From Bacteroidota bacterium (GTDB lineage Bacteria; Bacteroidota; Bacteroidia; Chitinophagales; Saprospiraceae), in the NCBI GenBank assembly GCA_039804385.1, contig JBDLWG010000426.1:1-40617 (forward strand): 40,617 nucleotides of DNA. The letters are read 5' to 3'. The notes under the pieces were generated by a model that worked only from the letters and a program-made list of their open reading frames with translations, made no database searches and was not told the DNA's origin. Within the stretch, counting starts at the first letter, position 1. Each line of letters starts with the position of its first letter. Position numbers and translations under genes: made by a program. Below, in pieces: positions 4,052-14,324 of the stretch.

Positions 4052-5155
4052 TTATTCAAATAATATATTATAATTTGTCGTTCTGCCACCTGCATCTTCT
4101 TTTTTCAATATCTTTTTTTGGATTAAATCTTGAATATCGCGCAATGCCGTGTCATTAGAACTTTTTGTCATTTTAGCCCATTTCGCCGCCGTTAATTTCC
4201 CTTCAAAAACGCCCAAAAGTTTGTTCAACATCATTATTTGGCGTTGATTGAGGATGGTCTTAGCCTGTTTATCCCAGAAACGCGCTTTTTGCAAAACCCG
4301 ATTCAAAATAACCTCACTGTCTTGCAAGGCGATGTTTAGACAGGCCAAAAACCATAAAAGCCATTCGGTTAGATCCAAATCACCCTTTTGCGTTTTTTCC
4401 AAAATCTGGTAATATTGTTTGCGTTGCAACTGAATTTGAGCCGACATACTGTAAAAACGTTGCAAAACACCATCTGCTTTGGACAATTGCATATCCGCAA
4501 TCGCCCGCGCCATCCGTCCATTCCCATCCTCAAAAGGATGAATCGTCACAAACCAAAGATGCGCAATGCCTGCCTTTAAAATCGGATCCAGTACCTGTGT
4601 TCCATTAAACCATTGCAAAAAAAGACTCATTTCGGATTCCAATCTATCGGCAGCAGGGGCTTGAAAATGCACTTGCTCCTGCCCGAATGCGCCCGAAACG
4701 ACTTGCATCGCGCCCTTTTCATCTTTTCGCCACTGTGCAACTGCTATTTTATACATGCCACTTCTGCCTGTCGGGAACAATGCCGCATGCCAATCGAACA
4801 ACCGTTCACTCGTCAAGGGGCTTTGAGTGTTTTGAGTTGCGTCCAACATCATTTGCACGACTCCTTCGATATGCCTATCCGAAGGAATCAAACCATGAAT
4901 TTCCATACCCAATTGCCGCGCAATCGAAGAACGTACTTGCTCAGGTTGCAAAAATTGCCCTTCAATTTCATTGGTTTTGACAATATCGACCGTCAATGTT
5001 TCCAAAAAAGCCTCTTGTTGGAAGGCAAAACCAAGCATTGACATCTTGCTAATGAGTTTTCCTTGCAAATAGCGGACCGTACTTAATGGCGTAATCAAGG
5101 CATTATTGTCCCATGAAAAAGTTGCCCAATTTTTTTGTTGATGAATGTAGCGCAT
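4052..5155 (-). CDS. Fic family protein (class II, auto-inhibited AMPylase-type) with C-terminal wHTH-like tail
   Basis: Fic active-site motif HPFEDGNGRMARA. There is an upstream inhibitory-helix motif [S/T]xxxE[G/N] = TNEIEG. The N-terminus MRYIHQQKNWATFSWDN is typical of Fic proteins with an N-terminal DUF4172-type domain. The track ORF extends to 5224, but that extension is encoded by a palindromic hairpin. Confidence 0.85.
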   Translation of the reverse strand: MRYIHQQKNWATFSWDNNALITPLSTVRYLQGKLISKMSMLGFAFQQEAFLETLTVDIVKTNEIEGQFLQPEQVRSSIARQLGMEIHGLIPSDRHIEGVVQMMLDATQNTQSPLTSERLFDWHAALFPTGRSGMYKIAVAQWRKDEKGAMQVVSGAFGQEQVHFQAPAADRLESEMSLFLQWFNGTQVLDPILKAGIAHLWFVTIHPFEDGNGRMARAIADMQLSKADGVLQRFYSMSAQIQLQRKQYYQILEKTQKGDLDLTEWLLWFLACLNIALQDSEVILNRVLQKARFWDKQAKTILNQRQIMMLNKLLGVFEGKLTAAKWAKMTKSSNDTALRDIQDLIQKKILKKEDAGGRTTNYNILFE

Positions 5156-5184
5156 GTTCTTTTTTTTAATGCGGCAAATATACG

Positions 5185-5217
5185 CCTTAATCTCCGCAAA
5201 ATTTGCGGAGATTAAGG
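5185..5217. terminator. perfect 16-bp-stem hairpin separating the SRPBCC gene from fic
   Basis: The sequence is CCTTAATCTCCGCAAA-A-TTTGCGGAGATTAAGG, immediately 3' of the SRPBCC stop codon. Confidence 0.55.
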
Positions 5218-5227
5218 GATTCATTCG

Positions 5228-5954: not shown

Positions 5955-5987
5955 GAAAAAAGTGCGGCAAGTTACAACTTGCCGCAC
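5955..5987 (-). terminator. intrinsic terminator of purA
   Basis: GTGCGGCAAGTT-AC-AACTTGCCGCAC forms the stem. On the minus strand it is followed by TTTTTT (the A-run at 5956-5961 on the plus strand). Confidence 0.8.
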
Positions 5988-6032
5988 TTTGAAGATGCGG
6001 AAACTAAAAATCGACCAATAAAGTGGGGCGAT

Positions 6033-7325
6033 TTAAAAAATTTCAAAATGCTTAGGCAATGTAATCAATTTTTCCCGTTCTGGACCTGTTGAAACGATGG
6101 TAATCGGAACGCCCAAATACGCCGCAATTTTATCCAAAAACGCAACCGCCTGTTTTGGCAAATCCTCTAAATGCGTGATGCCTTCCAACGATTGTTCCCA
6201 ACCTTTTACGGTTTCATAGACGGGTTCCACAGGGATTTCCGTTATATCATACGGCAAATCCGTATGTGTATCTCCTTGATACTTATAACGTGTCGCCAAT
6301 CGAATGCCTGATAAACTGTTTAAAACATCCATTTTAGTCACCCCGATTTGCGTCACTCCATTCAACATGATGGCATATTTCAATTGAGGCAAATCAATCC
6401 AACCACATCGCCGCGCACGCCCTGTCGTCGAACCAAATTCTGCCCCTTCTTTGCGCAAAAACGCGCCCATACTATCGTTCAATTCCGTCGGAAACGGGCC
6501 TGAACCGACCCGCGTACAATACGCTTTCGTGATGCCAATCACTTCGCCCACCGCCGTCGGCGCAACGCCAAGACCACTACATACGCCCGCCGTAATCGTA
6601 TTGGAAGAAGTTACAAACGGATAAGTGCCAAAATCGACATCCAGCATGGAGCCTTGCGCCCCTTCCGCCAAAACGCGTTTACCTTCACGCAAAGCATCAT
6701 TGATATAGTATTCACAATCAATGAGTTGCAACGATTTTAAGGTTTCCAACGAAGAAAACCATTTAGCTTCTTCTGCTTCTAATGGAAAATCATATAACGC
6801 AGGATATATTTTTAATAATTCTAAATGCTTGTTTTTCAATCGATTATACTTATCCAAGAAATTGGGTAACAAAATGTCGCCAACCCGCAAACCATTACGC
6901 CCCGTCTTATCCATGTAAGTAGGTCCAATCCCTTTCAACGTAGAACCAATTTTTTCTTTGCCTTTCATCGATTCACTCGCTGCGTCTAACAAACGGTGTG
7001 TGGGCAAAATCAAATGTGCTTTTTTCGCCACAAACAAACGTTTCAAAAACGAAACTCCTGTTTCTTTCAATAAATGCAATTCTTTTTCGACGGTAATCGG
7101 GTCAATCACCACCCCATTTCCAATCACATTTATCAAGTTTTCCCGAAAAATACCAGATGGAATGGTATGCAATACATACTTTTTACCACCAAATTTTAAC
7201 GTATGTCCCGCATTCGGACCGCCTTGAAACCTTGCCACGATGTCATAACGCGGCGCGAGATAATCCACAATTTTACCTTTTCCTTCGTCGCCCCATTGGA
7301 GACCAAGTAATACATCTACTTTCAT
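6033..7325 (-). CDS. purA: adenylosuccinate synthase
   Basis: MKVDVLLGLQWGDEGKGKIVD P-loop, GIGPTY and GTTGRARRCGW motifs. Full length, 430 aa. Confidence 0.97.
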   Translation of the reverse strand: MKVDVLLGLQWGDEGKGKIVDYLAPRYDIVARFQGGPNAGHTLKFGGKKYVLHTIPSGIFRENLINVIGNGVVIDPITVEKELHLLKETGVSFLKRLFVAKKAHLILPTHRLLDAASESMKGKEKIGSTLKGIGPTYMDKTGRNGLRVGDILLPNFLDKYNRLKNKHLELLKIYPALYDFPLEAEEAKWFSSLETLKSLQLIDCEYYINDALREGKRVLAEGAQGSMLDVDFGTYPFVTSSNTITAGVCSGLGVAPTAVGEVIGITKAYCTRVGSGPFPTELNDSMGAFLRKEGAEFGSTTGRARRCGWIDLPQLKYAIMLNGVTQIGVTKMDVLNSLSGIRLATRYKYQGDTHTDLPYDITEIPVEPVYETVKGWEQSLEGITHLEDLPKQAVAFLDKIAAYLGVPITIVSTGPEREKLITLPKHFEIF

Positions 7326-7348
7326 ATTTTATTGATAATTAATGGTTT

Positions 7349-8047
7349 TCAAATACTTTTATTTTTAATATTTTTATTAAGCTCCGCACAAAACGCCAAA
7401 AAATAAGCAAAAGATGGAATGTCATTTGTTTTTACCGTTCTTTGGATTAATTGATGTAAATATGCTTTTTCTGTAACGCTTCGAGGATTTTTCTTTGTAT
7501 ATTGAATATTGCGTTCAGATAATAGTTCTTTCAAATAACATTCGTGAAATTGGGCTGTTGTTTCAAATTCATCAAAATTAGGCATCCGTTCAGGGTCTTG
7601 TTTAGACACATCATAAAAATTTATGTATGTACGTAAATCAGGGCTATGTGGATTTCTTTTGAAAACTTTTGTATTGCCCAAAAGCCATGTTTCAATACAT
7701 TTATTTTGAATGATTAGGATAAATTGAGTTTTTTCCATAAGCACAACCCTTTGCGAAGTCATAAAATCCATCACTTCCTGTTTCCGTTCTTCAACAGAAG
7801 CCTCATCCGAATCCAGACAGATTACAAAATAATCGAAATTACCCATCTCATTCACATCACAAATGGCATTCGTAAGATGATTGTGAAGCAAAGACGGGAA
7901 CCCATTACCACTAAACATATAATAGTTATTGGAGACCGCTTTATGAGGGTCATCCACTTCCATTAAGAGTGGAACCAGTTCAGCAAGCCATTTAGGATAG
8001 ACTTTTTTCTCGGTTCTCTTGCCTTCTACTAAAAAATACACGTTCAT
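7349..8047 (-). CDS. RloB-like / Toprim-like protein (AbiLii-like partner of the upstream ATPase)
   Basis: N-terminal FLVEGKRTEKKVY matches the EGxxTE pattern of RloB. Also has an acidic DxD (ICLDSDE, D79/D81) and QNKCIETWLLGN, which resembles the RloB SNPcFElWlLlH segment. Its start overlaps the ATPase stop codon in an ATGA. Confidence 0.7.
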   Translation of the reverse strand: MNVYFLVEGKRTEKKVYPKWLAELVPLLMEVDDPHKAVSNNYYMFSGNGFPSLLHNHLTNAICDVNEMGNFDYFVICLDSDEASVEERKQEVMDFMTSQRVVLMEKTQFILIIQNKCIETWLLGNTKVFKRNPHSPDLRTYINFYDVSKQDPERMPNFDEFETTAQFHECYLKELLSERNIQYTKKNPRSVTEKAYLHQLIQRTVKTNDIPSFAYFLAFCAELNKNIKNKSI

Positions 8048-9201
8048 TGTTGTTCGGTACCTGTTTGATAGGCTTCTAATTGCATTAATTGCATAAATGC
8101 ATCATGCTTAGATTTCCCCAAATTAAATTCGGAAGCGTTATGCGTGCGCACCACACCTGCATTTCGAGTCACTAATTTCCAATTATCAAAATGAATATTA
8201 TTGATAATATACGGATGATGACTCGTTAAAATGAATTGCAATTTCCGTTTCGATTTGAGCATATCGCTTGTCAATTCATCAATACAATTGATGCCTAAAC
8301 TGTTTTCAAATTCATCAATCAGAAAAACAGTTCCTTCTGAACACAAATAGAGTTCGCTGATATGCATAAGCGTTCGATACATGCCCGATGAAATCCTATT
8401 TTGCTGAATCCACTTATCAACGCCCGCCTCTTTGATTTGCAAAAAAGGATATTCCTTGAAAAAATCAGGCATATCTACATCTCTAACCTCTAAGGGAGCT
8501 ACTTTCAAATCCGTCACTTGTGGAAAAATAGCTATAAATCGCTCTTTGATAATATTAAATAATTTTTTATCTATCTTAGCAATTAGAAAAAGTTTTAGAC
8601 TGGTTTCCAAATTGCCTTCTTGGATTTTAGCTATTGTATTATATTTTTTTGCCAATTGATTCGCATTCAGCATCATTACTCGAAACGTTCCCGACGCTTG
8701 CATCGAATTAGATTGCTCACTAAATGACAGTTGATTCAAACCTAAATGAGCTGGCTCAATCAGATTTTCGGCTTTTAGCAAATTAAGCACGCTTTCATAT
8801 TGTGAAAGTTTAATGGTTTCTTTACCCTCAAATATGATTTTACCTGCATCTCTGTCAATAATTTGTTTGCCATTTCTAAACAATTTTTCAAAAACGATTT
8901 TGGGTTTGTCTTTTTGTTTTTCATCATCGTCATCATCTGCAAAAAAAATAGATGTATCTTTCACTTGAAAAGCACCTTCCCAAATATAATTTTCATCATG
9001 AATTGTTTGAAAATCAAAACGCCATTGAACTCCATTGATAGATTTCCCAGAACTTATCTCATGAATCGCCATAATAGCCCGAAGTATCTGCGTTTTACCA
9101 ACGCCAGATGCACCAACCAAAAGCGTGAGTTTTTTGAGTTCAAAAGGCTCTAAACGCCACCCACGAGATTTGTCTTCAAATTGAATACTATTAATTTTCA
9201 T
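8044..9201 (-). CDS. AAA_15/AAA_21-type ABC-like ATPase (RloA/AbiLi-like)
   Basis: Walker A GASGVGKT (K36), Walker B/D-loop VFLIDEFENSLG and an H-loop-like ILTSHHP. Translationally coupled to the RloB-like gene. Confidence 0.75.
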   Translation of the reverse strand: MKINSIQFEDKSRGWRLEPFELKKLTLLVGASGVGKTQILRAIMAIHEISSGKSINGVQWRFDFQTIHDENYIWEGAFQVKDTSIFFADDDDDEKQKDKPKIVFEKLFRNGKQIIDRDAGKIIFEGKETIKLSQYESVLNLLKAENLIEPAHLGLNQLSFSEQSNSMQASGTFRVMMLNANQLAKKYNTIAKIQEGNLETSLKLFLIAKIDKKLFNIIKERFIAIFPQVTDLKVAPLEVRDVDMPDFFKEYPFLQIKEAGVDKWIQQNRISSGMYRTLMHISELYLCSEGTVFLIDEFENSLGINCIDELTSDMLKSKRKLQFILTSHHPYIINNIHFDNWKLVTRNAGVVRTHNASEFNLGKSKHDAFMQLMQLEAYQTGTEQQ

Positions 9202-9247
9202 GATTTTGCTATTTTAAAAGCACAAAGTTAGGTTGTTTTCTCTTTTT

Positions 9248-9748
9248 TTAATCGTTTAATAAAAAATCTCCTTGCCGATGATAATCGCGCTCTTTCTGAC
9301 AAGCGTGACATAAACCATATAAGTTTAAAGAATGATGTGTAATTTCAAAATTCAAAATGTCTCCCATCATTGTTTTGATATTTTGGATGCGCGGGTCACA
9401 AAACTCCGTCACGGTGCTGCACTGCGTGCAAATCACATGATCATGTTGTTTAAATCCAAACGATTTTTCATATTGCGCCAAATTTTTGCCAAATTGATGT
9501 TTTTTGACCAAATCGCAATGCACCAAGAGTTCCAACGTGTTGTAAACGGTGGCACGACTGACCCGATAACTCTGATTTTTCATATGGATATACAGGGCTT
9601 CTGCGTCGAAATGGTCATCGCGCCTATAAATTTCTTCAAGAATGGCGTAGCGTTCTGGCGTTTTGCGACACCCTGTTTGTTCAAGGTGCGCCGTGAAAAT
9701 ATCGCGGACTTCCCGAATAATATCGGCTGCTTTTTGATTGGTCGGCAT
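9248..9748 (-). CDS. fur: Fur family transcriptional regulator
   Basis: wHTH region [20 protein letters not shown] and a C-terminal CHAC metal-site motif. Length is typical. Confidence 0.9.
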
Positions 9749-9833
9749 ATGCGCTTTTTGATTTTACCGCAAAAATACATTATTTTTGAAAGATTAAAGC
9801 GATAAAGTAGTTCAATTGAAATAACCTATCCAA

Positions 9834-9865
9834 AAGGTCGGCGAGGTTGCAACCTCGCCGACCTT
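9834..9865 (-). terminator. hairpin terminator downstream of the aminotransferase gene
   Basis: AAGGTCGGCGAGGTTGCAACCTCGCCGACCTT, with a T-run after the stem on the minus strand. Confidence 0.65.
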
Positions 9866-9930
9866 GATTCAATACGAATACGTTGATTATCAATGAGTTG
9901 CATTTTGATAGTTTATTTCGATTCAACTAC

Positions 9931-11259
9931 TTAAATTTGTGATGCATAGCGTTTCGCTTTGACAAAAGCACTGAATCGTTCCATCGCTACTTTCAAATCG
10001 GATTTTGAAATATATGGGAAAACCATTCTAAATTGTCCCTGTTTGGTGTGTCCAAAACCAGCTCCGGGCGTGAGCAAGATGCCTGTACCGCGATAAAAAG
10101 CTGTCCAAAAAGCCACTTCTGCTTCGGGCGTATTGGATTCTAAAAATTCGGATAAATCCAACCAAACAAATAAACTCCCATACGATGGCACATAAGGCAA
10201 TTTTAAATTTTTCAAATATCGAACTACCACCACATAAGATTCGGTCAAAGCGCGTTGATTGCGTCGAATGTAATCATCCATAAAATCGTCATCTTCCATC
10301 AACATTTGCAACAACCATTGCGTATGATTGGAAATCGTATGTCCTAAATTAATATTTTGATACGCTTTTATAAACGTTTCGTTGTGGGAATAAACCAATC
10401 CAACTCTAAATCCAGAAATCCCAAAATCTTTCGATAAGGCATACCAATAATGCAAATACGGGCTTTTTTTAAGCTCCATTAGTTGCGCAAATGATTGAAA
10501 ATCAATTCTTTTCGCATAATCATTTGCAATTTCGGGATGATGCGTATTGATTAACGATAAGCCATAAATCTCATTGACGACCAAATGAATTTCTTTTGAA
10601 ATGCACCAATCCGCGATTTTTTCTAATTGTGCCGTTTCATAAATGCCACCTGTTGGATTATCAGGATGGGTCAAAACCAACATTTTAAAACATTTTCCTG
10701 CTTTTTGAAGGTCTGCAAGGGCTTTTTCTAAGTGTGGAATATCCAGCAATAGTCCATTTTGAAGGTCTGCCAACTCATGATGCGTAATTAAATCATATCT
10801 TTCTAATCCAGATATACTGCCAATATCGTTTTTATAAACAGGATAACAAGGCGCGGGAAAGACCGCTACATCACCTGCATCGCCGAGAATAAACGCAGTC
10901 ACTTCAATCACGCCTGTTGCGCCCGGCGAAATCCCCATTTTATCAGGGTCAATCGGGCATTTTGTTAAAAATTTGGATAAAAAATGCGCCAATGCCTTCC
11001 TAAATGGCGGCAAACCCAAAGTGGAAGTATAGCCCGCAACCCAATCTGGAATCGGTTGCGTCCTTGAAATGCTTTCCAATTTCGCTTTCAACATCGCCCA
11101 ACTCAACTTATTTTCAGCTACATTGAGGGGGAAACCGCCATTTGGATTGTCATGTTCATGGTAAATATTTTCAATTGCCTCAAAATAGAGGTTCAAATCG
11201 ACGCGCATCACCGTTTCGGATGCTTTTTCGCCGCGTTTCGAGAGGGTAATCGGATTCAT
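9931..11259 (-). CDS. PLP-dependent class I/II aminotransferase, ACC-synthase-like subfamily
   Basis: NVAENKLSW near the N-terminus, NPDNPTGG, and the PLP-lysine motif SKDFGISGFRVG. Confidence 0.85.
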   Translation of the reverse strand: MNPITLSKRGEKASETVMRVDLNLYFEAIENIYHEHDNPNGGFPLNVAENKLSWAMLKAKLESISRTQPIPDWVAGYTSTLGLPPFRKALAHFLSKFLTKCPIDPDKMGISPGATGVIEVTAFILGDAGDVAVFPAPCYPVYKNDIGSISGLERYDLITHHELADLQNGLLLDIPHLEKALADLQKAGKCFKMLVLTHPDNPTGGIYETAQLEKIADWCISKEIHLVVNEIYGLSLINTHHPEIANDYAKRIDFQSFAQLMELKKSPYLHYWYALSKDFGISGFRVGLVYSHNETFIKAYQNINLGHTISNHTQWLLQMLMEDDDFMDDYIRRNQRALTESYVVVVRYLKNLKLPYVPSYGSLFVWLDLSEFLESNTPEAEVAFWTAFYRGTGILLTPGAGFGHTKQGQFRMVFPYISKSDLKVAMERFSAFVKAKRYASQI

Positions 11260-11263
11260 ATTT

Positions 11264-13042
11264 TTATTTATCTATCCATAATTTATGATTTGGAGAAAAG
11301 ACCGCAATTGCGTCTTCAGCAATATTTTCAATGGTTAACTCATCCGTTCTACCAAAATTCCCTTTTAATTCTCCTTCCTCAATCATCGTTACAATATACT
11401 GAAATCGAACGCCCTGTTGTTGCAAAGTGGCAACAAAATGATACAATGCAACAAATTGAGATTTATCCATGCCATCAAAAATGCCATCATGGAGCAAAAA
11501 GTGAGGAATTTTAATACTTTGACTAATTGCATGAAACATTATTGCTATGTCATATACCAAAGTCCGTCCTTTATTCCAACCTTTGGATTCATCTTTATCA
11601 AAAGAAATATCTATTTTAATTTTATCGATGCTATCTTTGGAGGTAATTGAAAAACCAGAGCTTTGACTATGTGGGTAAAGTTGGTTATAAACTTCCGAAA
11701 ATATTTTTTCAAACCCATTGATATTGTCTTGAATACCATTGATAAAAGCATTCATTTTTAAACTAATATCAGCATCTCGCTTCTTATAAGAAAGTTTTTC
11801 TAATTCTAAATCTTTAAACATTTTGATTCTACTTTCTAAATGGGCATACTCTTGTTCTCGCGCTGCCAAATAATAGAAAGCCTGTGTCAAATCGGTAAAT
11901 GCTTCCTTCGATTTTAACAATAAAAAAAAATCGCGCCGTTGTTTATCCAAAACTTGTATTTTCTTTTCATTGGTTTGAACCTCCATTTCGAGTGTTTGTA
12001 TCTCTAATTTTAAAAATTCTTCTCTGGATTGTGCCAATTTTTTTCTAAAATCAATCGCTTCTATTAATGAATGTTGTACAATTTGACTTAATTGCTCATT
12101 TAACTCCTTATAAAGTTTTCCAATATCTCGAATGGTATTTTCACTAAGTACATCTTTCAATTCAAAACTCTCTTTGTAAGTTGTAATTTTTTTTTGATTC
12201 CAAAAATTCTGTTCCGACAATGCTTTTATTTGTCCTGTTAGGTTATTCAGTTCTACTTCTACGTTTTTATGATGTTCTGCCAATTTAAAAGCATCAATAG
12301 CGATTTTACTCTTTTTAATATCATTTTTTAATTTACTTAATTGACTATCAACCTGTTTTATATCTAAATTATAATTCTTTTCAATAAATTTGCGGATTTG
12401 AATCAGAGCCGTTTGTCGTTCATGAACTTCTTTTTGAAGCTCAAAATTTTCGTAAAGTAAGGTATTATCCAACCCCAAAAGTAAAAAATGATATGGATTG
12501 AGTTCACATAATTTGCTTGTCGGTATAAAATGGATCGGATCCGTAAATTCCCCTTTCGCTTTTTTGTGGACTTTAAGAAAAAAAGCCATGAAATTCCGAT
12601 ACCATTTTTCTAATGCAACTCCTTCATAAGCACTATTCTTAAACATCAATTGAAAAAGAAACGATTTTGCATCTTTTAAAAACAGTTGGTTCAAACTATT
12701 ATTTAAACCAATAAGCACTTCTTGTGAAGTCAGCACATTTCTTTTAATCATATAAAGATTATCATCCACTTCAAACTCCAAAACAATTAGATATTTTTCT
12801 AATCTATTTTTTTCTTTATATAATCTTGAATTTTTAGTACTAAAATCCGCTAATAAACAAAAATCTATTAAATCCGCTACCGTTGATTTTCCCAAACCAT
12901 TTAAAGGCTCTTTGCTATCACTTTTATCTTTTTTACCAAAAATAAAGTTAAAACCTTCCTTAAAGACAATCGTGTGAGGATGTTCTCGTTTGCCAGAACG
13001 GAACAATCCAAAGGGTTCACTATAAAGTCTTTTCAGAAACAT
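11264..13042 (-). CDS. coiled-coil ABC/SMC-like ATPase (DUF2326-like; ABC-3C ATPase component)
   Basis: N-terminal P-loop PLNGLGKST (K52). A heptad-rich K/E/L/Q insert of about 250 aa follows. The C-terminal head half carries HFLLHDGIFDGMD (Walker B/D-loop, about aa 514-526). Its start shares one nt with the stop of the 76-aa ORF (TAATG). Confidence 0.75.
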   Translation of the reverse strand: MFLKRLYSEPFGLFRSGKREHPHTIVFKEGFNFIFGKKDKSDSKEPLNGLGKSTVADLIDFCLLADFSTKNSRLYKEKNRLEKYLIVLEFEVDDNLYMIKRNVLTSQEVLIGLNNSLNQLFLKDAKSFLFQLMFKNSAYEGVALEKWYRNFMAFFLKVHKKAKGEFTDPIHFIPTSKLCELNPYHFLLLGLDNTLLYENFELQKEVHERQTALIQIRKFIEKNYNLDIKQVDSQLSKLKNDIKKSKIAIDAFKLAEHHKNVEVELNNLTGQIKALSEQNFWNQKKITTYKESFELKDVLSENTIRDIGKLYKELNEQLSQIVQHSLIEAIDFRKKLAQSREEFLKLEIQTLEMEVQTNEKKIQVLDKQRRDFFLLLKSKEAFTDLTQAFYYLAAREQEYAHLESRIKMFKDLELEKLSYKKRDADISLKMNAFINGIQDNINGFEKIFSEVYNQLYPHSQSSGFSITSKDSIDKIKIDISFDKDESKGWNKGRTLVYDIAIMFHAISQSIKIPHFLLHDGIFDGMDKSQFVALYHFVATLQQQGVRFQYIVTMIEEGELKGNFGRTDELTIENIAEDAIAVFSPNHKLWIDK

Positions 13043-13274: not shown

Positions 13275-14324
13275 CTAAAATAAAGATAACTGTTTTTCTT
13301 CTATTGTTTTTTCACCAATGTAACAAAATTCAAAGAAACAAAATATAATTGCTTTAGCATTCGCTTGATAATGAGGATTCAATCGTTTATGCGCTTGCAA
13401 AAGCCCAAGACTCAGTAATTCAACCCACTTAACGTCTTGAATCGGCGTTTCAGGGTCTGTAGTTCCTCGAATTTGACAATAATTTTGTTGTATAATTTCT
13501 TTTAAATCAATAATTTTACTCTCTTCGTCCAATATTGAAAGATAATTATTCACCAATTGCTGTTTATCCCAAGTATTGATAATCATTTCCGATACTCGTT
13601 TTCGTTGCGGTTCTGGAAAATTGATAGGTACTTTAACTTTCAATTTGGTGAACGCAAGGGAAATAGCAATTTCCGAAGCACGGCTCACTTTTTTGGGAGT
13701 ATTCTCTAATAAATGGTCAATAATATCGTCAATAATGCCTAAATCTGCTATTGAATCGTCCAAACCACTATAACTGACACTCATTTTTTGACTCATGTAA
13801 GTATAGAGCGCCTCTACATAATCGGCTTGCGCATCTTTTAAAAGGGCAGACAAATCACTATGGTCAATAATATGTTTATCTTTGTCAAATTCAAATGATT
13901 TCTTAACCGTTTTATCAAAATCCGCCCTCGGATATGATTTTTTTCCACGATACATCAATACATAGAGGGTATTATAACCCTCTTTTAAACTTTTATTCAT
14001 AAAGCCGCGAATAGAATGATGTATCTTTTCGGAGCTATCTTCGGAAGTGATTTGAACTGCAATTTTCAAATCCCAATCTCCTAAATCTGCGCCCTCATAT
14101 TGAGGTTCATTTGCAGTATTCAACCCTTTTAACTGCCAACCCAAAAAAAGGTTTAACAAACCCCGATAAAATTCTTCAGCATCTTTATTGGAGTCAAAAT
14201 AACCTGCACGATTGGAAAAAGTGGCTCCTCTTTCTAAGGTGTGCAACCATTTAATAATCTCATTTTTATATTCACTTATCCTGTACATGGCAGCAAAGAT
14301 ACTATTTTTGATATAATCAAGCAA
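13275..14324 (-). CDS. putative effector of the three-gene cassette (SMEK-like N-domain + helical C-domain)
   Basis: First gene of the cassette. The N-terminal segment FYRGLLNLFLGWQLKGLN...GADLGDWDLKIAVQITS resembles, from memory, proteins annotated as SMEK-domain. The start is uncertain: TTG at 14324, or ATG at 14288 (MYRISEY). Confidence 0.55.
   Translation of the reverse strand: MLDYIKNSIFAAMYRISEYKNEIIKWLHTLERGATFSNRAGYFDSNKDAEEFYRGLLNLFLGWQLKGLNTANEPQYEGADLGDWDLKIAVQITSEDSSEKIHHSIRGFMNKSLKEGYNTLYVLMYRGKKSYPRADFDKTVKKSFEFDKDKHIIDHSDLSALLKDAQADYVEALYTYMSQKMSVSYSGLDDSIADLGIIDDIIDHLLENTPKKVSRASEIAISLAFTKLKVKVPINFPEPQRKRVSEMIINTWDKQQLVNNYLSILDEESKIIDLKEIIQQNYCQIRGTTDPETPIQDVKWVELLSLGLLQAHKRLNPHYQANAKAIIFCFFEFCYIGEKTIEEKQLSLF

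What the first reader, a model, noticed from the sequence alone, without database searches (positions are those of the whole stretch)
7349..9201. AbiL / RloA-RloB-like split-OLD pair (AAA ATPase + Toprim-like) inserted between fur and purA
**Seen.** Two ORFs overlap in an ATGA.
- The 385-aa protein is an ABC-like AAA_15/21 ATPase, with GASGVGKT, VFLIDEFENSLG and TSHHP.
- The 232-aa protein carries the RloB/Toprim-like hallmarks: FLVEGKRTEKKVY (E8), DSD (D79/D81) and QNKCIETWLLGN.

The pair is conspicuously AT-rich. It fills the space between fur (46-nt spacer) and purA (23-nt spacer).

**Established knowledge.** ATPase plus RloB/DUF4276/DUF4435 Toprim pairs are the split form of OLD-family nucleases. 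They underlie AbiL (AbiLi/AbiLii) and, in a related form, PARIS (AriA/AriB).

**Inference.** This is an abortive-infection-type defence pair. It has a known architecture but is an unstudied Bacteroidota variant with compact proteins.
Basis: partly seen in the sequence, partly recalled or inferred. Interest (0 to 1): 0.65.

Follow-up and report, generated by a model that had tools for sequence, protein, structure and literature searches.

The report
Mobile ATPase–Toprim nuclease defence cassette
A self-contained two-gene cassette (an ABC-type ATPase plus a small Toprim-like nuclease, the AbiL/HEC-01 kind of presumed anti-phage module) sits inside the fur–purA operon of a freshwater Bacteroidota bacterium, and wild populations carry it intact, with the nuclease gene deleted, or not at all, so it is a real but ordinary accessory module.

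Summary
Two minus-strand ORFs (385 aa at 8044-9201, 232 aa at 7349-8047) overlap in ATGA. They lie 46 nt after fur and 23 nt before purA, at GC 0.34 against 0.41-0.43 for the flanking genes.

- **ATPase:** an intact ABC ATPase (AAA_21). Its closest folds are PtuA and SMC/Rad50 heads.
- **232-aa protein:** belongs to a coherent family annotated only as "hypothetical protein" (788 clusters at 50% identity). It matches RloB and DUF4276 only below Pfam thresholds. It keeps the Toprim catalytic pattern (E8, D79-x-D/E81, E119) on a β-α-β-α-β-α-β core. Foldseek found no significant match.
- **Mobility:** the pair travels as a unit through unrelated chromosomal sites, small plasmids in three phyla and one inovirus-like contig.
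- **Empty site:** none of 160 fur/purA loci from relatives contains it.
- **Population variation:** freshwater metagenomes hold empty-site alleles with breakpoints at 7348/7355 and 9248, and recurrent deletions that remove the Toprim core while sparing the ATPase.
- **Expression:** metatranscriptome contigs cover the pair and its junctions.

Most likely it is an AbiL/HEC-01-type ATPase-sensor and Toprim-effector module with toxin–antitoxin-like logic. Defence itself is inferred, not shown. It is a new member of a known kind.

The parts
7349..9247 (-). The whole inserted cassette: 46-nt leader, ATPase gene and Toprim gene up to its own stop codon (1899 nt).
   Evidence: - Empty-site joints 7348->9248 (run X1) and 7355->9248 (run X9) in freshwater metagenome contigs.
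- Homology with cassettes elsewhere (L001, L091) starts at the fur stop codon and ends about at the Toprim stop.
- GC 0.340 against 0.41-0.43 for the flanking genes.
9202..9247 (-). Cassette leader. It holds TAACTTTG at 9223-9230, a candidate Bacteroidota -7 promoter box (TAnnTTTG) 29 nt before the ATG.
   Evidence: - The leader is conserved in L001, L091 and L092.
- A TAnnTTTG motif lies 21-39 nt upstream of the ATPase start in L001, L005, L006, L008 and L091, out of the ten cassette upstream regions scanned.
- The promoter consensus itself is from my own knowledge and was not tested here.
8044..9201 (-). 385-aa ABC ATPase (AAA_21), the presumed sensor and restrainer.
   Evidence: - Motifs: Walker A at 9091-9114, signature SSGM at 8380-8391, Walker B/D-loop at 8293-8328, H-loop at 8212-8226.
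- Pfam AAA_21 6e-15, above cut-off.
- PADLOC AbiLi 1.6e-22, and in 31/31 family members.
- All four motifs are invariant in 31 homologs.
- AF2 model pLDDT 84. Foldseek top hits are retron and Septu PtuA and SMC/Rad50 heads, down to E about 1e-12.
7349..8047 (-). 232-aa Toprim-like protein (RloB/DUF4276 superfamily), the presumed nuclease effector.
   Evidence: - Catalytic candidates: E8 (8024-8026), E13 (8009-8011), D79-S-D81 (7805-7813), Q114..E119 (7691-7708).
- Invariant in 63 diverse family members: E8, G9, E13, W20, G49, D79, E119, P152. Position 81 is D in 33 and E in 30.
- Pfam hits are sub-threshold: DUF4276 8e-5 and RloB 2e-4.
- Family-wide Pfam hits: RloB 33/63, DUF4276 27/63, OLD-like_TOPRIM 2, Toprim 1.
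- PADLOC AbiLii hits 41/63 members.
- AF2 model pLDDT 94 with a beta-alpha x4 core and a C-terminal helical domain.
8044..8047 (-). ATGA stop/start overlap, suggesting translational coupling.
   Evidence: - Seen.
- The same 4-nt overlap occurs in L001, L003, L006, L008 and L090.
7368..7916 (-). Segment missing in a common natural allele: an in-frame 549-nt deletion that leaves a 49-aa remnant without the DxD and E119 residues.
   Evidence: - Joint 7367->7917 with 4-nt microhomology in DNA runs X1, X2, X3, X6, X7 and X14, and in RNA run X25.
9248..9748 (-). fur, the upstream flank (not part of the cassette).
   Evidence: PF01475 at 1e-28.
6033..7325 (-). purA, the downstream flank (not part of the cassette). 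The spacer 7326-7348 belongs to the host.
   Evidence: - PF00709 at 2e-163.
- Empty-site alleles keep 7326-7348.

Best explanation
The segment 7349-9247 is a horizontally acquired, self-contained two-gene module that is not fixed in the population. It is of the 'ABC ATPase plus separate Toprim nuclease' kind, like AbiL, RloAB, HEC-01 and Mad3-Mad4.

**Shown here**
- It is an insertion into the conserved fur-purA unit.
- It carries its own conserved leader.
- The two genes always travel together and are usually overlapping.
- Both keep their catalytic residues.
- The locus is transcribed in situ.
- Wild populations hold intact, Toprim-deleted and empty alleles.

**Inferred mechanism**
- The ATPase (probably an oligomer, as in PtuA and AriA) binds the Toprim protein and keeps it inactive while it surveys the cell.
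- A phage-derived cue changes the ATPase state and frees or activates the Toprim nuclease.
- The nuclease cuts a nucleic acid using the metal-binding residues E8, D79, D81 and E119.
- The target may be tRNA, by analogy with AriB and P2 OLD, or it may be DNA.
- The result is growth arrest of the infected cell (abortive infection).

This amounts to toxin-antitoxin-like logic, with the Toprim protein as the costly or toxic part.
For: **Insertion**
- fur lies directly upstream of purA in 47/80 genome loci and 41/80 metagenome loci of relatives. Most gaps are 9-130 nt, and none holds the pair.
- Empty-site contigs join 7348 or 7355 to 9248 with 16- or 11-nt fillers, giving 39-41-nt spacers.
- Further contigs break exactly at 7348.
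- The insert has low GC and GC3.

**The pair is a unit**
- The same ATPase-then-Toprim order occurs in ten different contexts with unrelated neighbours, with a 4-nt or 1-nt overlap or a gap of 1-29 nt.
- Identities of the two proteins to the window fall together across loci: 81/76, 61/57, 60/56, 50/52, 37/31, 27/34 %.

**Domains**
-, as listed under parts.

**Toxin-like effector**
- Three independent natural deletions (7367->7917, 7710->8059, 7400->8060) remove the Toprim core but keep at least 380 of the 385 ATPase codons.
- The joint 7367->7917 recurs in six DNA runs and 7710->8059 in two. 7400->8060 was seen in one run (X2, depth 4, shorter side 23 nt).
- No ATPase-only deletion was seen.

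**Expression**
- Ten metatranscriptomic runs hold parts of the pair.
- RNA contigs span the gene overlap (8005-8197), the fur/leader/ATPase junction (9217-9367 plus 9077-9231), and ATPase-delta-Toprim-purA (8339..7917|7367..7263).

**Literature**
- DUF4276 and RloB are Toprim-superfamily nucleases found in defence systems (PMC12065111).
- AbiL and MADS3-4 pair an ABC ATPase with a TOPRIM protein (PMC11464382).
- AAA proteins neutralise TOPRIM/RloB toxins in NetFlax pairs (PMC10440598).
- AriB and P2 OLD are tRNases (PMC12409363; bioRxiv 10.64898/2026.07.10.737580).
Against: - No experiment exists on this family.
- The one tested HEC-01 representative (ABC ATPase plus TOPRIM) gave no defence in E. 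coli.
- The Toprim assignment rests on sub-threshold profile hits, motif positions and predicted topology.
- Foldseek against PDB and BFVD gave nothing significant: best PDB E 0.014, and an 'RloB-like protein' only at E 0.013 with TM 0.33.
- A PDB sequence-profile search gave nothing.
- A Proteus plasmid carries an intact Toprim gene next to a frameshifted ATPase. This argues against strict neutralisation, unless it is a sequencing error.
- The immediate flanks are housekeeping genes, not a defence island, although DUF2326 and SMEK genes lie 2-5 kb away.
- Metatranscriptome contigs are unstranded and may include carried-over DNA.
- The empty-site evidence rests on one contig per run, with 21 and 53 nt on the shorter side.
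Confidence: 0.62

Rival explanations
1. It is a purely selfish addiction (toxin-antitoxin) module. The Toprim toxin and ATPase antitoxin stabilise whatever replicon carries them and have no dedicated anti-phage role.
For: - The pair occurs on small plasmids (about 10-15 kb) next to replication genes and a RelE/ParE pair.
- NetFlax classes AAA + TOPRIM/RloB pairs as toxin-antitoxin systems.
- Natural deletions hit the Toprim gene and spare the ATPase.
- HEC-01 gave no defence.
Against: - Here it is chromosomal and is being lost outright in part of the population (empty alleles), so it does not enforce its own retention.
- AbiL, the best-matching PADLOC model for both proteins, is a proven abortive-infection system (PMC13064643).
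- Toxin-antitoxin and abortive-infection roles are not mutually exclusive.
Confidence: 0.2
2. It is a weapon in competition between mobile elements. Carried by plasmids and filamentous phages, it excludes rival elements rather than protecting the cell from lytic phages.
For: - Divergent copies occur on an inovirus-like contig with Zot (L093) and on plasmids of three phyla.
- PARIS and OLD are themselves carried by satellites or prophages.
Against: - Only 1 of 2.9 million viral contigs and 1 of 50,697 phage records hold a relative.
- Most copies seen are chromosomal with no mobile-element genes nearby.
Confidence: 0.1
3. It is a host housekeeping function tied to fur/purA, such as iron-responsive nucleic-acid processing or repair.
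For: - It is co-oriented with fur and purA, with no terminator between them.
- RNA contigs run across both junctions.
Against: - It is absent from all 160 fur/purA loci of relatives.
- Its closest homologs (81-84% identity) sit in unrelated contexts.
- It varies between present and absent within one population.
- Its base composition is foreign to the flanks.
Confidence: 0.03
4. It is a decaying, functionless remnant of a past transfer.
For: - Several deletion alleles and empty alleles coexist in the wild.
Against: - The window allele has two intact ORFs with every catalytic residue that is invariant across 63 family representatives for the Toprim protein and 31 homologs for the ATPase.
- Intact contigs of 2.0-2.6 kb are the only form in runs X4, X5 and X8.
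- The family is under clear purifying selection (mean column identity 65-70% among 50-80% relatives).
Confidence: 0.05

Closest known systems
AbiL (AbiLi + AbiLii) of Lactococcus plasmid pND861
   Same: - Bicistronic: an ABC ATPase followed by a small RloB-type Toprim protein.
- AbiLi is the best PADLOC model for the ATPase (1.6e-22; 31/31 homologs).
- AbiLii is the most frequent PADLOC model for the Toprim family (41/63 members).
   Different: - Similarity is detectable only by profile.
- The AbiLi match covers profile positions 73-268 of 326.
- The window Toprim protein is below the RloB gathering score.
- tblastn of the 232-aa protein found no Lactococcus plasmid.
- The AbiL mechanism itself is unknown.
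HEC-01 (PADLOC candidate: ABC ATPase HEC-01A + TOPRIM/DUF4276 HEC-01B)
   Same: - Same two-gene architecture.
- Same protein sizes.
- Same predicted conserved metal site.
- HEC-01A and HEC-01B models hit both proteins weakly.
   Different: - HEC-01 was defined as embedded in Hma systems. This copy sits between fur and purA.
- Hits are weak (HEC-01B 4.7e-4).
- HEC-01 showed no defence in E. coli.
PARIS (AriA + AriB)
   Same: [quoted passage not shown]
- Toxin-antitoxin-like sequestration logic, which serves as the template for the mechanism proposed here.
   Different: - AriB is DUF4435, about 35 kDa. The 232-aa protein has no DUF4435 or AriB hit.
- AriA is about 53-55 kDa with IS1 and IS2 insertions.
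- The 'AriA' hit here is to a model with the same length and the same match coordinates as Pfam AAA_21 (1-304 of 304), so it looks generic.
MADS Mad3-Mad4 and Campylobacter RloA-RloB
   Same: - An AAA_15/21 ATPase next to a DUF4276 (Mad4) or RloB protein.
- The mad3 model hits the ATPase at 2.5e-10.
   Different: - Those pairs are parts of larger methylation or type I restriction-modification loci.
- Here there is no methyltransferase or restriction-modification gene in the flanks.
- No mad4 hit was reported for the Toprim protein.
P2 OLD / Gabija GajA (class 1/2 OLD nucleases)
   Same: - The combination of an ABC ATPase with a Toprim domain using a two-metal acidic site.
   Different: - Those are single fused polypeptides, with GajB in Gabija.
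- The OLD-like_TOPRIM Pfam model hits only 2/63 family members, at E 0.003.
- OLD and GajA do not appear among the 50 listed structural matches of the ATPase.
Septu / retron PtuA
   Same: - The closest solved fold for the ATPase (Foldseek E about 1e-12).
   Different: - PtuA partners with the HNH nuclease PtuB, not with a Toprim protein.

Membership tests
AbiL | Two adjacent co-oriented genes: an ABC (AAA_15/21) ATPase followed by a small Toprim-type protein. | tested here: met
   ORFs at 8044-9201 and 7349-8047 overlap in ATGA. AAA_21 matches at 6e-15, above cut-off.
AbiL | The first protein matches the AbiLi model. | tested here: met
   PADLOC AbiLi at 1.6e-22 is the best of 77 models, and hits 31/31 homologs with best E 3e-24. 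The match covers only profile positions 73-268 of 326.
AbiL | The second protein is an RloB-family (PF13707) / AbiLii protein. | tested here: not met
   - RloB scores 22.1 bits against a gathering score of 31.5.
- AbiLii scores 6.5e-6 (24.9 bits), and the best stretch is listed as residues 3-202 against profile positions 31-83 of 170.
- Family-wide, RloB hits 33/63 members (best 3e-9) and AbiLii 41/63 (best 8e-9).
- This makes it a borderline sister family.
AbiL | An abortive-infection phenotype that requires both genes. | not testable with these tools
   Needs phage assays.
HEC-01 | An ABC ATPase plus a DUF4276-type TOPRIM partner. | tested here: inconclusive
   - DUF4276 scores 23.4 bits against a cut-off of 30.2.
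- HEC-01B scores 4.7e-4 and HEC-01A 1.8e-11.
- Family-wide, single HEC-01B models hit up to 22/63 members, and the best E-value over all HEC-01B models is 5e-8.
HEC-01 | Embedded within an Hma (helicase-methylase-ATPase) system. | tested here: not met
   The flanks are fur and purA. No helicase or methylase lies within 5 kb.
PARIS | The effector is AriB (DUF4435 Toprim). | tested here: not met
   - No DUF4435 or AriB hit in Pfam or PADLOC for the window protein or for 63 relatives.
- No hit to PDB AriB chains with the family profile.
OLD class 1 / Gabija | ATPase and Toprim fused in one polypeptide, plus a UvrD-like GajB in Gabija. | tested here: not met
   - The ORFs are separate.
- The best 150 family representatives are 163-254 aa, so no fusions were seen.
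- No helicase gene is adjacent.
Toprim superfamily (fold level) | A conserved Glu after beta1 and DxD after beta3 on a beta-alpha-beta-alpha-beta-alpha-beta core. | tested here: met
   - E8 follows strand 2-7.
- D79-x-D/E81 ends strand 73-79.
- E119 follows strand 108-114.
- All are invariant in 63 sequences.
- The AF2 model has pLDDT 94.
Toprim superfamily (fold level) | Significant structural match to a solved Toprim domain. | tested here: not met
   - Foldseek against PDB found 0 hits at E <= 0.001.
- In BFVD, an 'RloB-like protein' appears only at E 0.013 with TM 0.33.
Septu (PtuAB) | The ATPase is partnered with the HNH nuclease PtuB. | tested here: not met
   The partner has no HNH hit. 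Only the ATPase fold resembles PtuA.

The most novel reading that the evidence does not exclude
This is a distinct, widespread ATPase-Toprim system (788 clusters at 50% identity, all seen annotated only as 'hypothetical protein') with its own trigger and target. Because it is spliced into the fur-purA transcript, its dose would follow iron and Fur status. Its effector would be costly enough that wild populations repeatedly delete it while keeping the ATPase. That would give a natural, trackable case of balancing selection on a defence toxin, and of the fur-purA junction acting as a recurrent landing pad for small abortive-infection or toxin-antitoxin cassettes.
Probability: 0.12. Interest if true: 0.6.

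Novelty: new member of a known kind. Interest (0 to 1): 0.38.

Why it matters
**For annotation**
- A coherent family of about 230-aa proteins falls between Pfam RloB and DUF4276.
- Every database and record name seen for it is 'hypothetical protein', and the window protein has no NCBIfam match.
- It should be recognised as the Toprim partner of an AAA_21 ATPase.

**For biology**
- The architecture is already known (AbiL, RloAB, HEC-01, Mad3-4), so the find does not change the picture of defence systems.
- It offers an unusually clean natural data set: precise cassette boundaries, empty-site alleles, and several independent effector-only deletions coexisting in freshwater populations, together with in-situ transcripts.
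- This pattern supports the unproven idea that the Toprim partner is the toxic effector and the ATPase its keeper.
- AbiL-type systems have no known mechanism. A well-behaved, compact member could serve as a model.

Tried and rejected
- **Foldseek, PDB and BFVD:** the high-confidence Toprim model gave no significant match. I could not confirm the fold by structure search, and no coordinates are available for my own superposition.
- **PDB sequence-profile search with the family alignment:** only noise.
- **phmmer of the ATPase against PDB:** only weak CcmA and PtuA hits.
- **NCBIfam:** no family for the 232-aa protein.
- **Flanking direct or inverted repeats, target-site duplications or att-like sites around 7349-9247:** only chance-level short repeats. 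No integrase or transposase lies nearby. The insertion mechanism stays unknown.
- **Near-isogenic empty site in assembled genomes or metagenome contigs:** the closest PurA is only 66-68% identical. The empty site came instead from run-level contigs.
- **Phage carriage:** essentially absent.
- **Sigma-70-type promoter and terminator scan:** at chance level, with no terminator between fur and purA.
- **A housekeeping role linked to fur/purA:** considered and rejected on distribution.
Full report
**1. The observation**

- The ORF listing gives two minus-strand ORFs, 8044..9201 (385 aa) and 7349..8047 (232 aa).
- The ATPase stop TGA and the downstream ATG share ATGA at 8044-8047.
- The fur stop (TAA, 9248-9250) lies 46 nt before the ATPase start. 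The Toprim stop (7349-7351) lies 23 nt before the purA ATG at 7325.
- GASGVGKT, VFLIDEFENSLG, TSHHP, E8, D79-S-D81 and QNKCIE all translate at the expected places.
- fur and purA are unambiguous: PF01475 at 1e-28 and PF00709 at 2e-163.
- The pair has GC 0.340 and GC3 0.289. fur has 0.411/0.425 and purA 0.429/0.413. Only 6% of equal-sized windows in the contig are as AT-rich.

**2. The ATPase**

- It passes Pfam AAA_21 (6e-15) and is below cut-off for AAA_15.
- In PADLOC the best model is AbiLi (1.6e-22). Weaker hits go to a generic AriA model, HEC-01A, PtuA, NsnB and mad3. AbiLi is hit by 31 of 31 homologs.
- Walker A, the signature SSGM, Walker B with E297, the D-loop and the H-loop are invariant in 31 homologs of 57-84% identity.
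- An AlphaFold2 model (pLDDT 84) matches best the PtuA ATPases of retrons Ec78, Ec83 and Eco7 and of Septu, then SMC and Rad50 heads, down to E about 1e-12.
- It is therefore a defence-type ABC ATPase. 'Split OLD' is only a loose description.

**3. The 232-aa protein**

- It has no NCBIfam family.
- It scores below Pfam gathering thresholds for both DUF4276 (23.4 bits, cut-off 30.2) and RloB (22.1 bits, cut-off 31.5).
- It belongs to a tight family. 380 clusters at 90% identity were found by word search; every name shown for them is 'hypothetical protein', and most carry no name. An exhaustive profile search found 788 clusters at 50% identity with E <= 1e-3, of which 354 have E <= 1e-30. The best 150 are 163-254 aa long.
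- In 63 diverse representatives (31-54% identical to the query) the invariant residues are E8, G9, E13, W20, G49, D79, E119 and P152. Position 81 is always acidic (D in 33, E in 30). Q114, C117 and W121 are nearly invariant.
- Scanned one by one, 33/63 hit RloB (best 3e-9), 27/63 hit DUF4276 (best 2e-8), 4 hit DUF3226, 2 hit OLD-like_TOPRIM and 1 hits Toprim.
- In PADLOC, 41/63 hit AbiLii, and single HEC-01B models hit up to 22/63.
- The AlphaFold2 model is very confident (pLDDT 94). Strands are at 2-7, 41-46, 73-79 and 108-114, each followed by a helix, and then comes a helical C-terminal domain.
- E8 follows strand 1, the DxD motif ends strand 3, and E119 follows strand 4. This is the Toprim arrangement described for DUF4276 and RloB in PMC12065111.
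- Against this, Foldseek found nothing significant in PDB or BFVD, and a PDB profile search found nothing.
- I therefore place the protein in the Toprim superfamily, as a sister family straddling RloB and DUF4276. It is not a formal member of either.

**4. The pair is a mobile unit**

- In every context retrieved, the ATPase precedes the Toprim gene, with a 4-nt or 1-nt overlap or a gap of 1-29 nt. The neighbours differ each time:
  - ftsY-like and Mqo genes (L001);
  - D12 methyltransferases in Hugenholtzia roseola (L003);
  - DUF5677 and clpX (L005);
  - valS (L008);
  - PDDEXK_2 (L090);
  - GIY-YIG (L091).
- Even the closest homologs (81-84% identity) are not next to fur or purA.
- The family also sits on plasmids of Bernardetia, Nostoc, Planktothrix, Methylovorus, Proteus and Acinetobacter, annotated 'hypothetical protein' next to an 'AAA family ATPase'.
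- A 34%-identical pair lies on an inovirus-like contig with a Zot gene.
- It is otherwise almost absent from phage collections.
- Identities of the two proteins fall in step across loci.

**5. It is an insertion, and not a fixed one**

*Relatives*
- fur directly upstream of purA is the rule in Bacteroidota: 47/80 species genomes and 41/80 metagenome loci. Gaps are mostly 9-130 nt, and none holds the pair.
- Longer gaps hold other things. One is a STAS-like ORF of about 115 aa.
- In Mucilaginibacter-type genomes the gap holds a different two-gene cassette, DUF6922 plus the AbiEii toxin (PF08843 at 1e-16).
- The junction therefore accepts small abortive-infection or toxin-antitoxin cassettes repeatedly.

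*Cassette boundaries*
- The closest PurA is only 66-68% identical (uncultured Saprospiraceae), so no near-isogenic genome exists in the collections.
- The sequence is nevertheless present in at least 24 freshwater runs.
- Laying their contigs on the window shows a joint 7348->9248 in run X1 (16-nt filler) and a joint 7355->9248 in run X9 (11-nt filler, depth 10.9, 53 nt on the shorter side).
- In these alleles the fur stop codon is joined to the purA spacer by 39-41 nt, as in relatives.
- Further contigs break exactly at 7348.
- The cassette boundaries defined this way (7349-9247) coincide with the limits of homology to cassettes elsewhere.
- The 46-nt leader, including TAACTTTG 29 nt before the ATG, is conserved in L001, L091 and L092. 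A TAnnTTTG motif lies 21-39 nt upstream in L001, L005, L006, L008 and L091, out of the ten cassette upstream regions scanned.
- That this motif is the Bacteroidota -7 promoter box is my own knowledge and was not tested.
- No flanking repeats or recombinase genes explain the insertion.

**6. Effector-only deletions**

- A 549-nt in-frame deletion (joint 7367->7917, 4-nt microhomology) recurs in DNA runs X1, X2, X3, X6, X7 and X14 and in RNA run X25. It leaves a 49-aa stub lacking D79, D81 and E119.
- Two other alleles remove the Toprim core but keep at least 380 of the 385 ATPase codons. The joint 7710->8059 occurs in X6 and X14. The joint 7400->8060 occurs in X2 only, at depth 4 with 23 nt on the shorter side.
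- Runs X4, X5 and X8 show only intact contigs of 2.0-2.6 kb.
- No allele lacking only the ATPase was seen.
- This asymmetry is what one expects if the Toprim protein is costly or toxic and the ATPase restrains it.
- It is circumstantial evidence. A Proteus plasmid with a frameshifted ATPase and an intact Toprim gene is a counter-example, or a sequencing error.

**7. Expression**

- Ten metatranscriptomic runs hold parts of the pair.
- RNA contigs span three junctions:
  - the gene overlap (8005-8197);
  - the fur-leader-ATPase junction (9217-9367 overlapping 9077-9231);
  - in the delta-549 allele, ATPase-stub-spacer-purA (8339..7917|7367..7263).
- No terminator is predicted between fur and purA.
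- The cassette is thus read as part of the fur-purA transcript and probably also from its own promoter.
- Caveats: the contigs are unstranded, and carried-over DNA cannot be excluded.

**8. Mechanism**

*Shown*
- The two-gene unit, its intact catalytic residues, its mobility, its presence/absence and effector-loss polymorphism, and its transcription.

*Inferred*
- The analogies are PARIS (AriA sequesters AriB until a phage protein is sensed; PMC11464382), NetFlax AAA-TOPRIM pairs (PMC10440598), and AbiL (abortive infection, both genes needed; PMC13064643).
- By these analogies, the ATPase oligomer holds the Toprim nuclease inactive and releases or activates it on infection.
- The nuclease then cuts tRNA (as AriB and P2 OLD do; PMC12409363; bioRxiv 10.64898/2026.07.10.737580) or DNA (as described for GajA of Gabija, from my own knowledge and not checked here). 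Growth stops.
- I put about 0.6 on this overall, about 0.95 on 'accessory mobile cassette', and only a slight preference for RNA over DNA as the target.
- The main rival is a purely selfish toxin-antitoxin module (0.2).

**9. Comparison and novelty**

- The architecture equals AbiL, RloAB, HEC-01 and Mad3-4.
- Formal membership fails for RloB/AbiLii (below cut-off), HEC-01 (not Hma-embedded), PARIS (no DUF4435), OLD and Gabija (not fused, no helicase) and Septu (no HNH).
- It works like these systems and is best called a new, unannotated member family of the ABC-ATPase plus Toprim kind.
- A specialist would not be surprised by the gene pair. The population-level allele series is the most useful extra.

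Noticed in passing
window 11264-13042 (-) and 13275-14324 (-): A second likely defence islet lies in an AT-rich stretch (GC 0.27-0.33), about 2 kb upstream of fur. It holds a 592-aa DUF2326 protein (PADLOC PDC-M68B 3.8e-58, with an LmuB-like N-terminus) and a 349-aa SMEK_N protein (PF21941 1.8e-34, matching the N-terminal part of Argonaute-associated 'Aga_REase-PNTD' models).
   Followed up: partly
L021:4121-5001 (Mucilaginibacter sp. dw_454); also L068, L102, L104: In these genomes the fur-purA gap (about 920 nt) holds a different overlapping two-gene cassette: DUF6922 (5.6e-21) plus the AbiEii nucleotidyltransferase toxin (1.1e-16). The fur-purA junction seems to be a recurrent landing place for small abortive-infection or toxin-antitoxin cassettes in Bacteroidota.
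   Followed up: partly
L012:4632-4982, L014:4610-4957, L039:4657-5004, L060:4654-5001, L023:4656-4997: In several Bacteroidota lineages the 380-460-nt fur-purA gap encodes an ORF of about 115 aa that looks like a STAS / anti-sigma-factor antagonist. This is judged by eye from the sequence and was not scanned.
   Followed up: no
window 9805-9932 and 5959-5990: - A 128-nt palindromic element lies upstream of fur. It has 30-nt terminal inverted repeats (87% complementary) around a perfect 16-bp GC-rich hairpin.
- A perfect 15-bp hairpin lies downstream of purA.
- Metagenome contig depth over both spikes to 340-2500, against about 20 in the flanks, with many divergent loose ends.
- This suggests a highly repeated REP- or MITE-like intergenic element family.
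- Neither element is part of the cassette boundaries.
   Followed up: partly
window 4052-5224 (-): A 390-aa DUF4172 + Fic/DOC protein, a possible toxin-like AMPylase, lies 0.8 kb downstream of purA.
   Followed up: no
L093:1-6991 (IMGVR_UViG_3300031931_000045): An inovirus-like contig (Zot protein 4e-34, DUF2726 protein) carries a divergent copy of the pair: a 375-aa ATPase and a 228-aa Toprim protein, 27% and 34% identical to the window proteins.
   Followed up: partly
L094 (Proteus terrae plasmid NZ_CP152081.1) 3803-5669: The ATPase homolog is split into two annotated CDS by a frameshift, while the Toprim gene is intact. The Toprim gene also appears twice in the 10-kb record, which may be an assembly duplication.
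   Followed up: no
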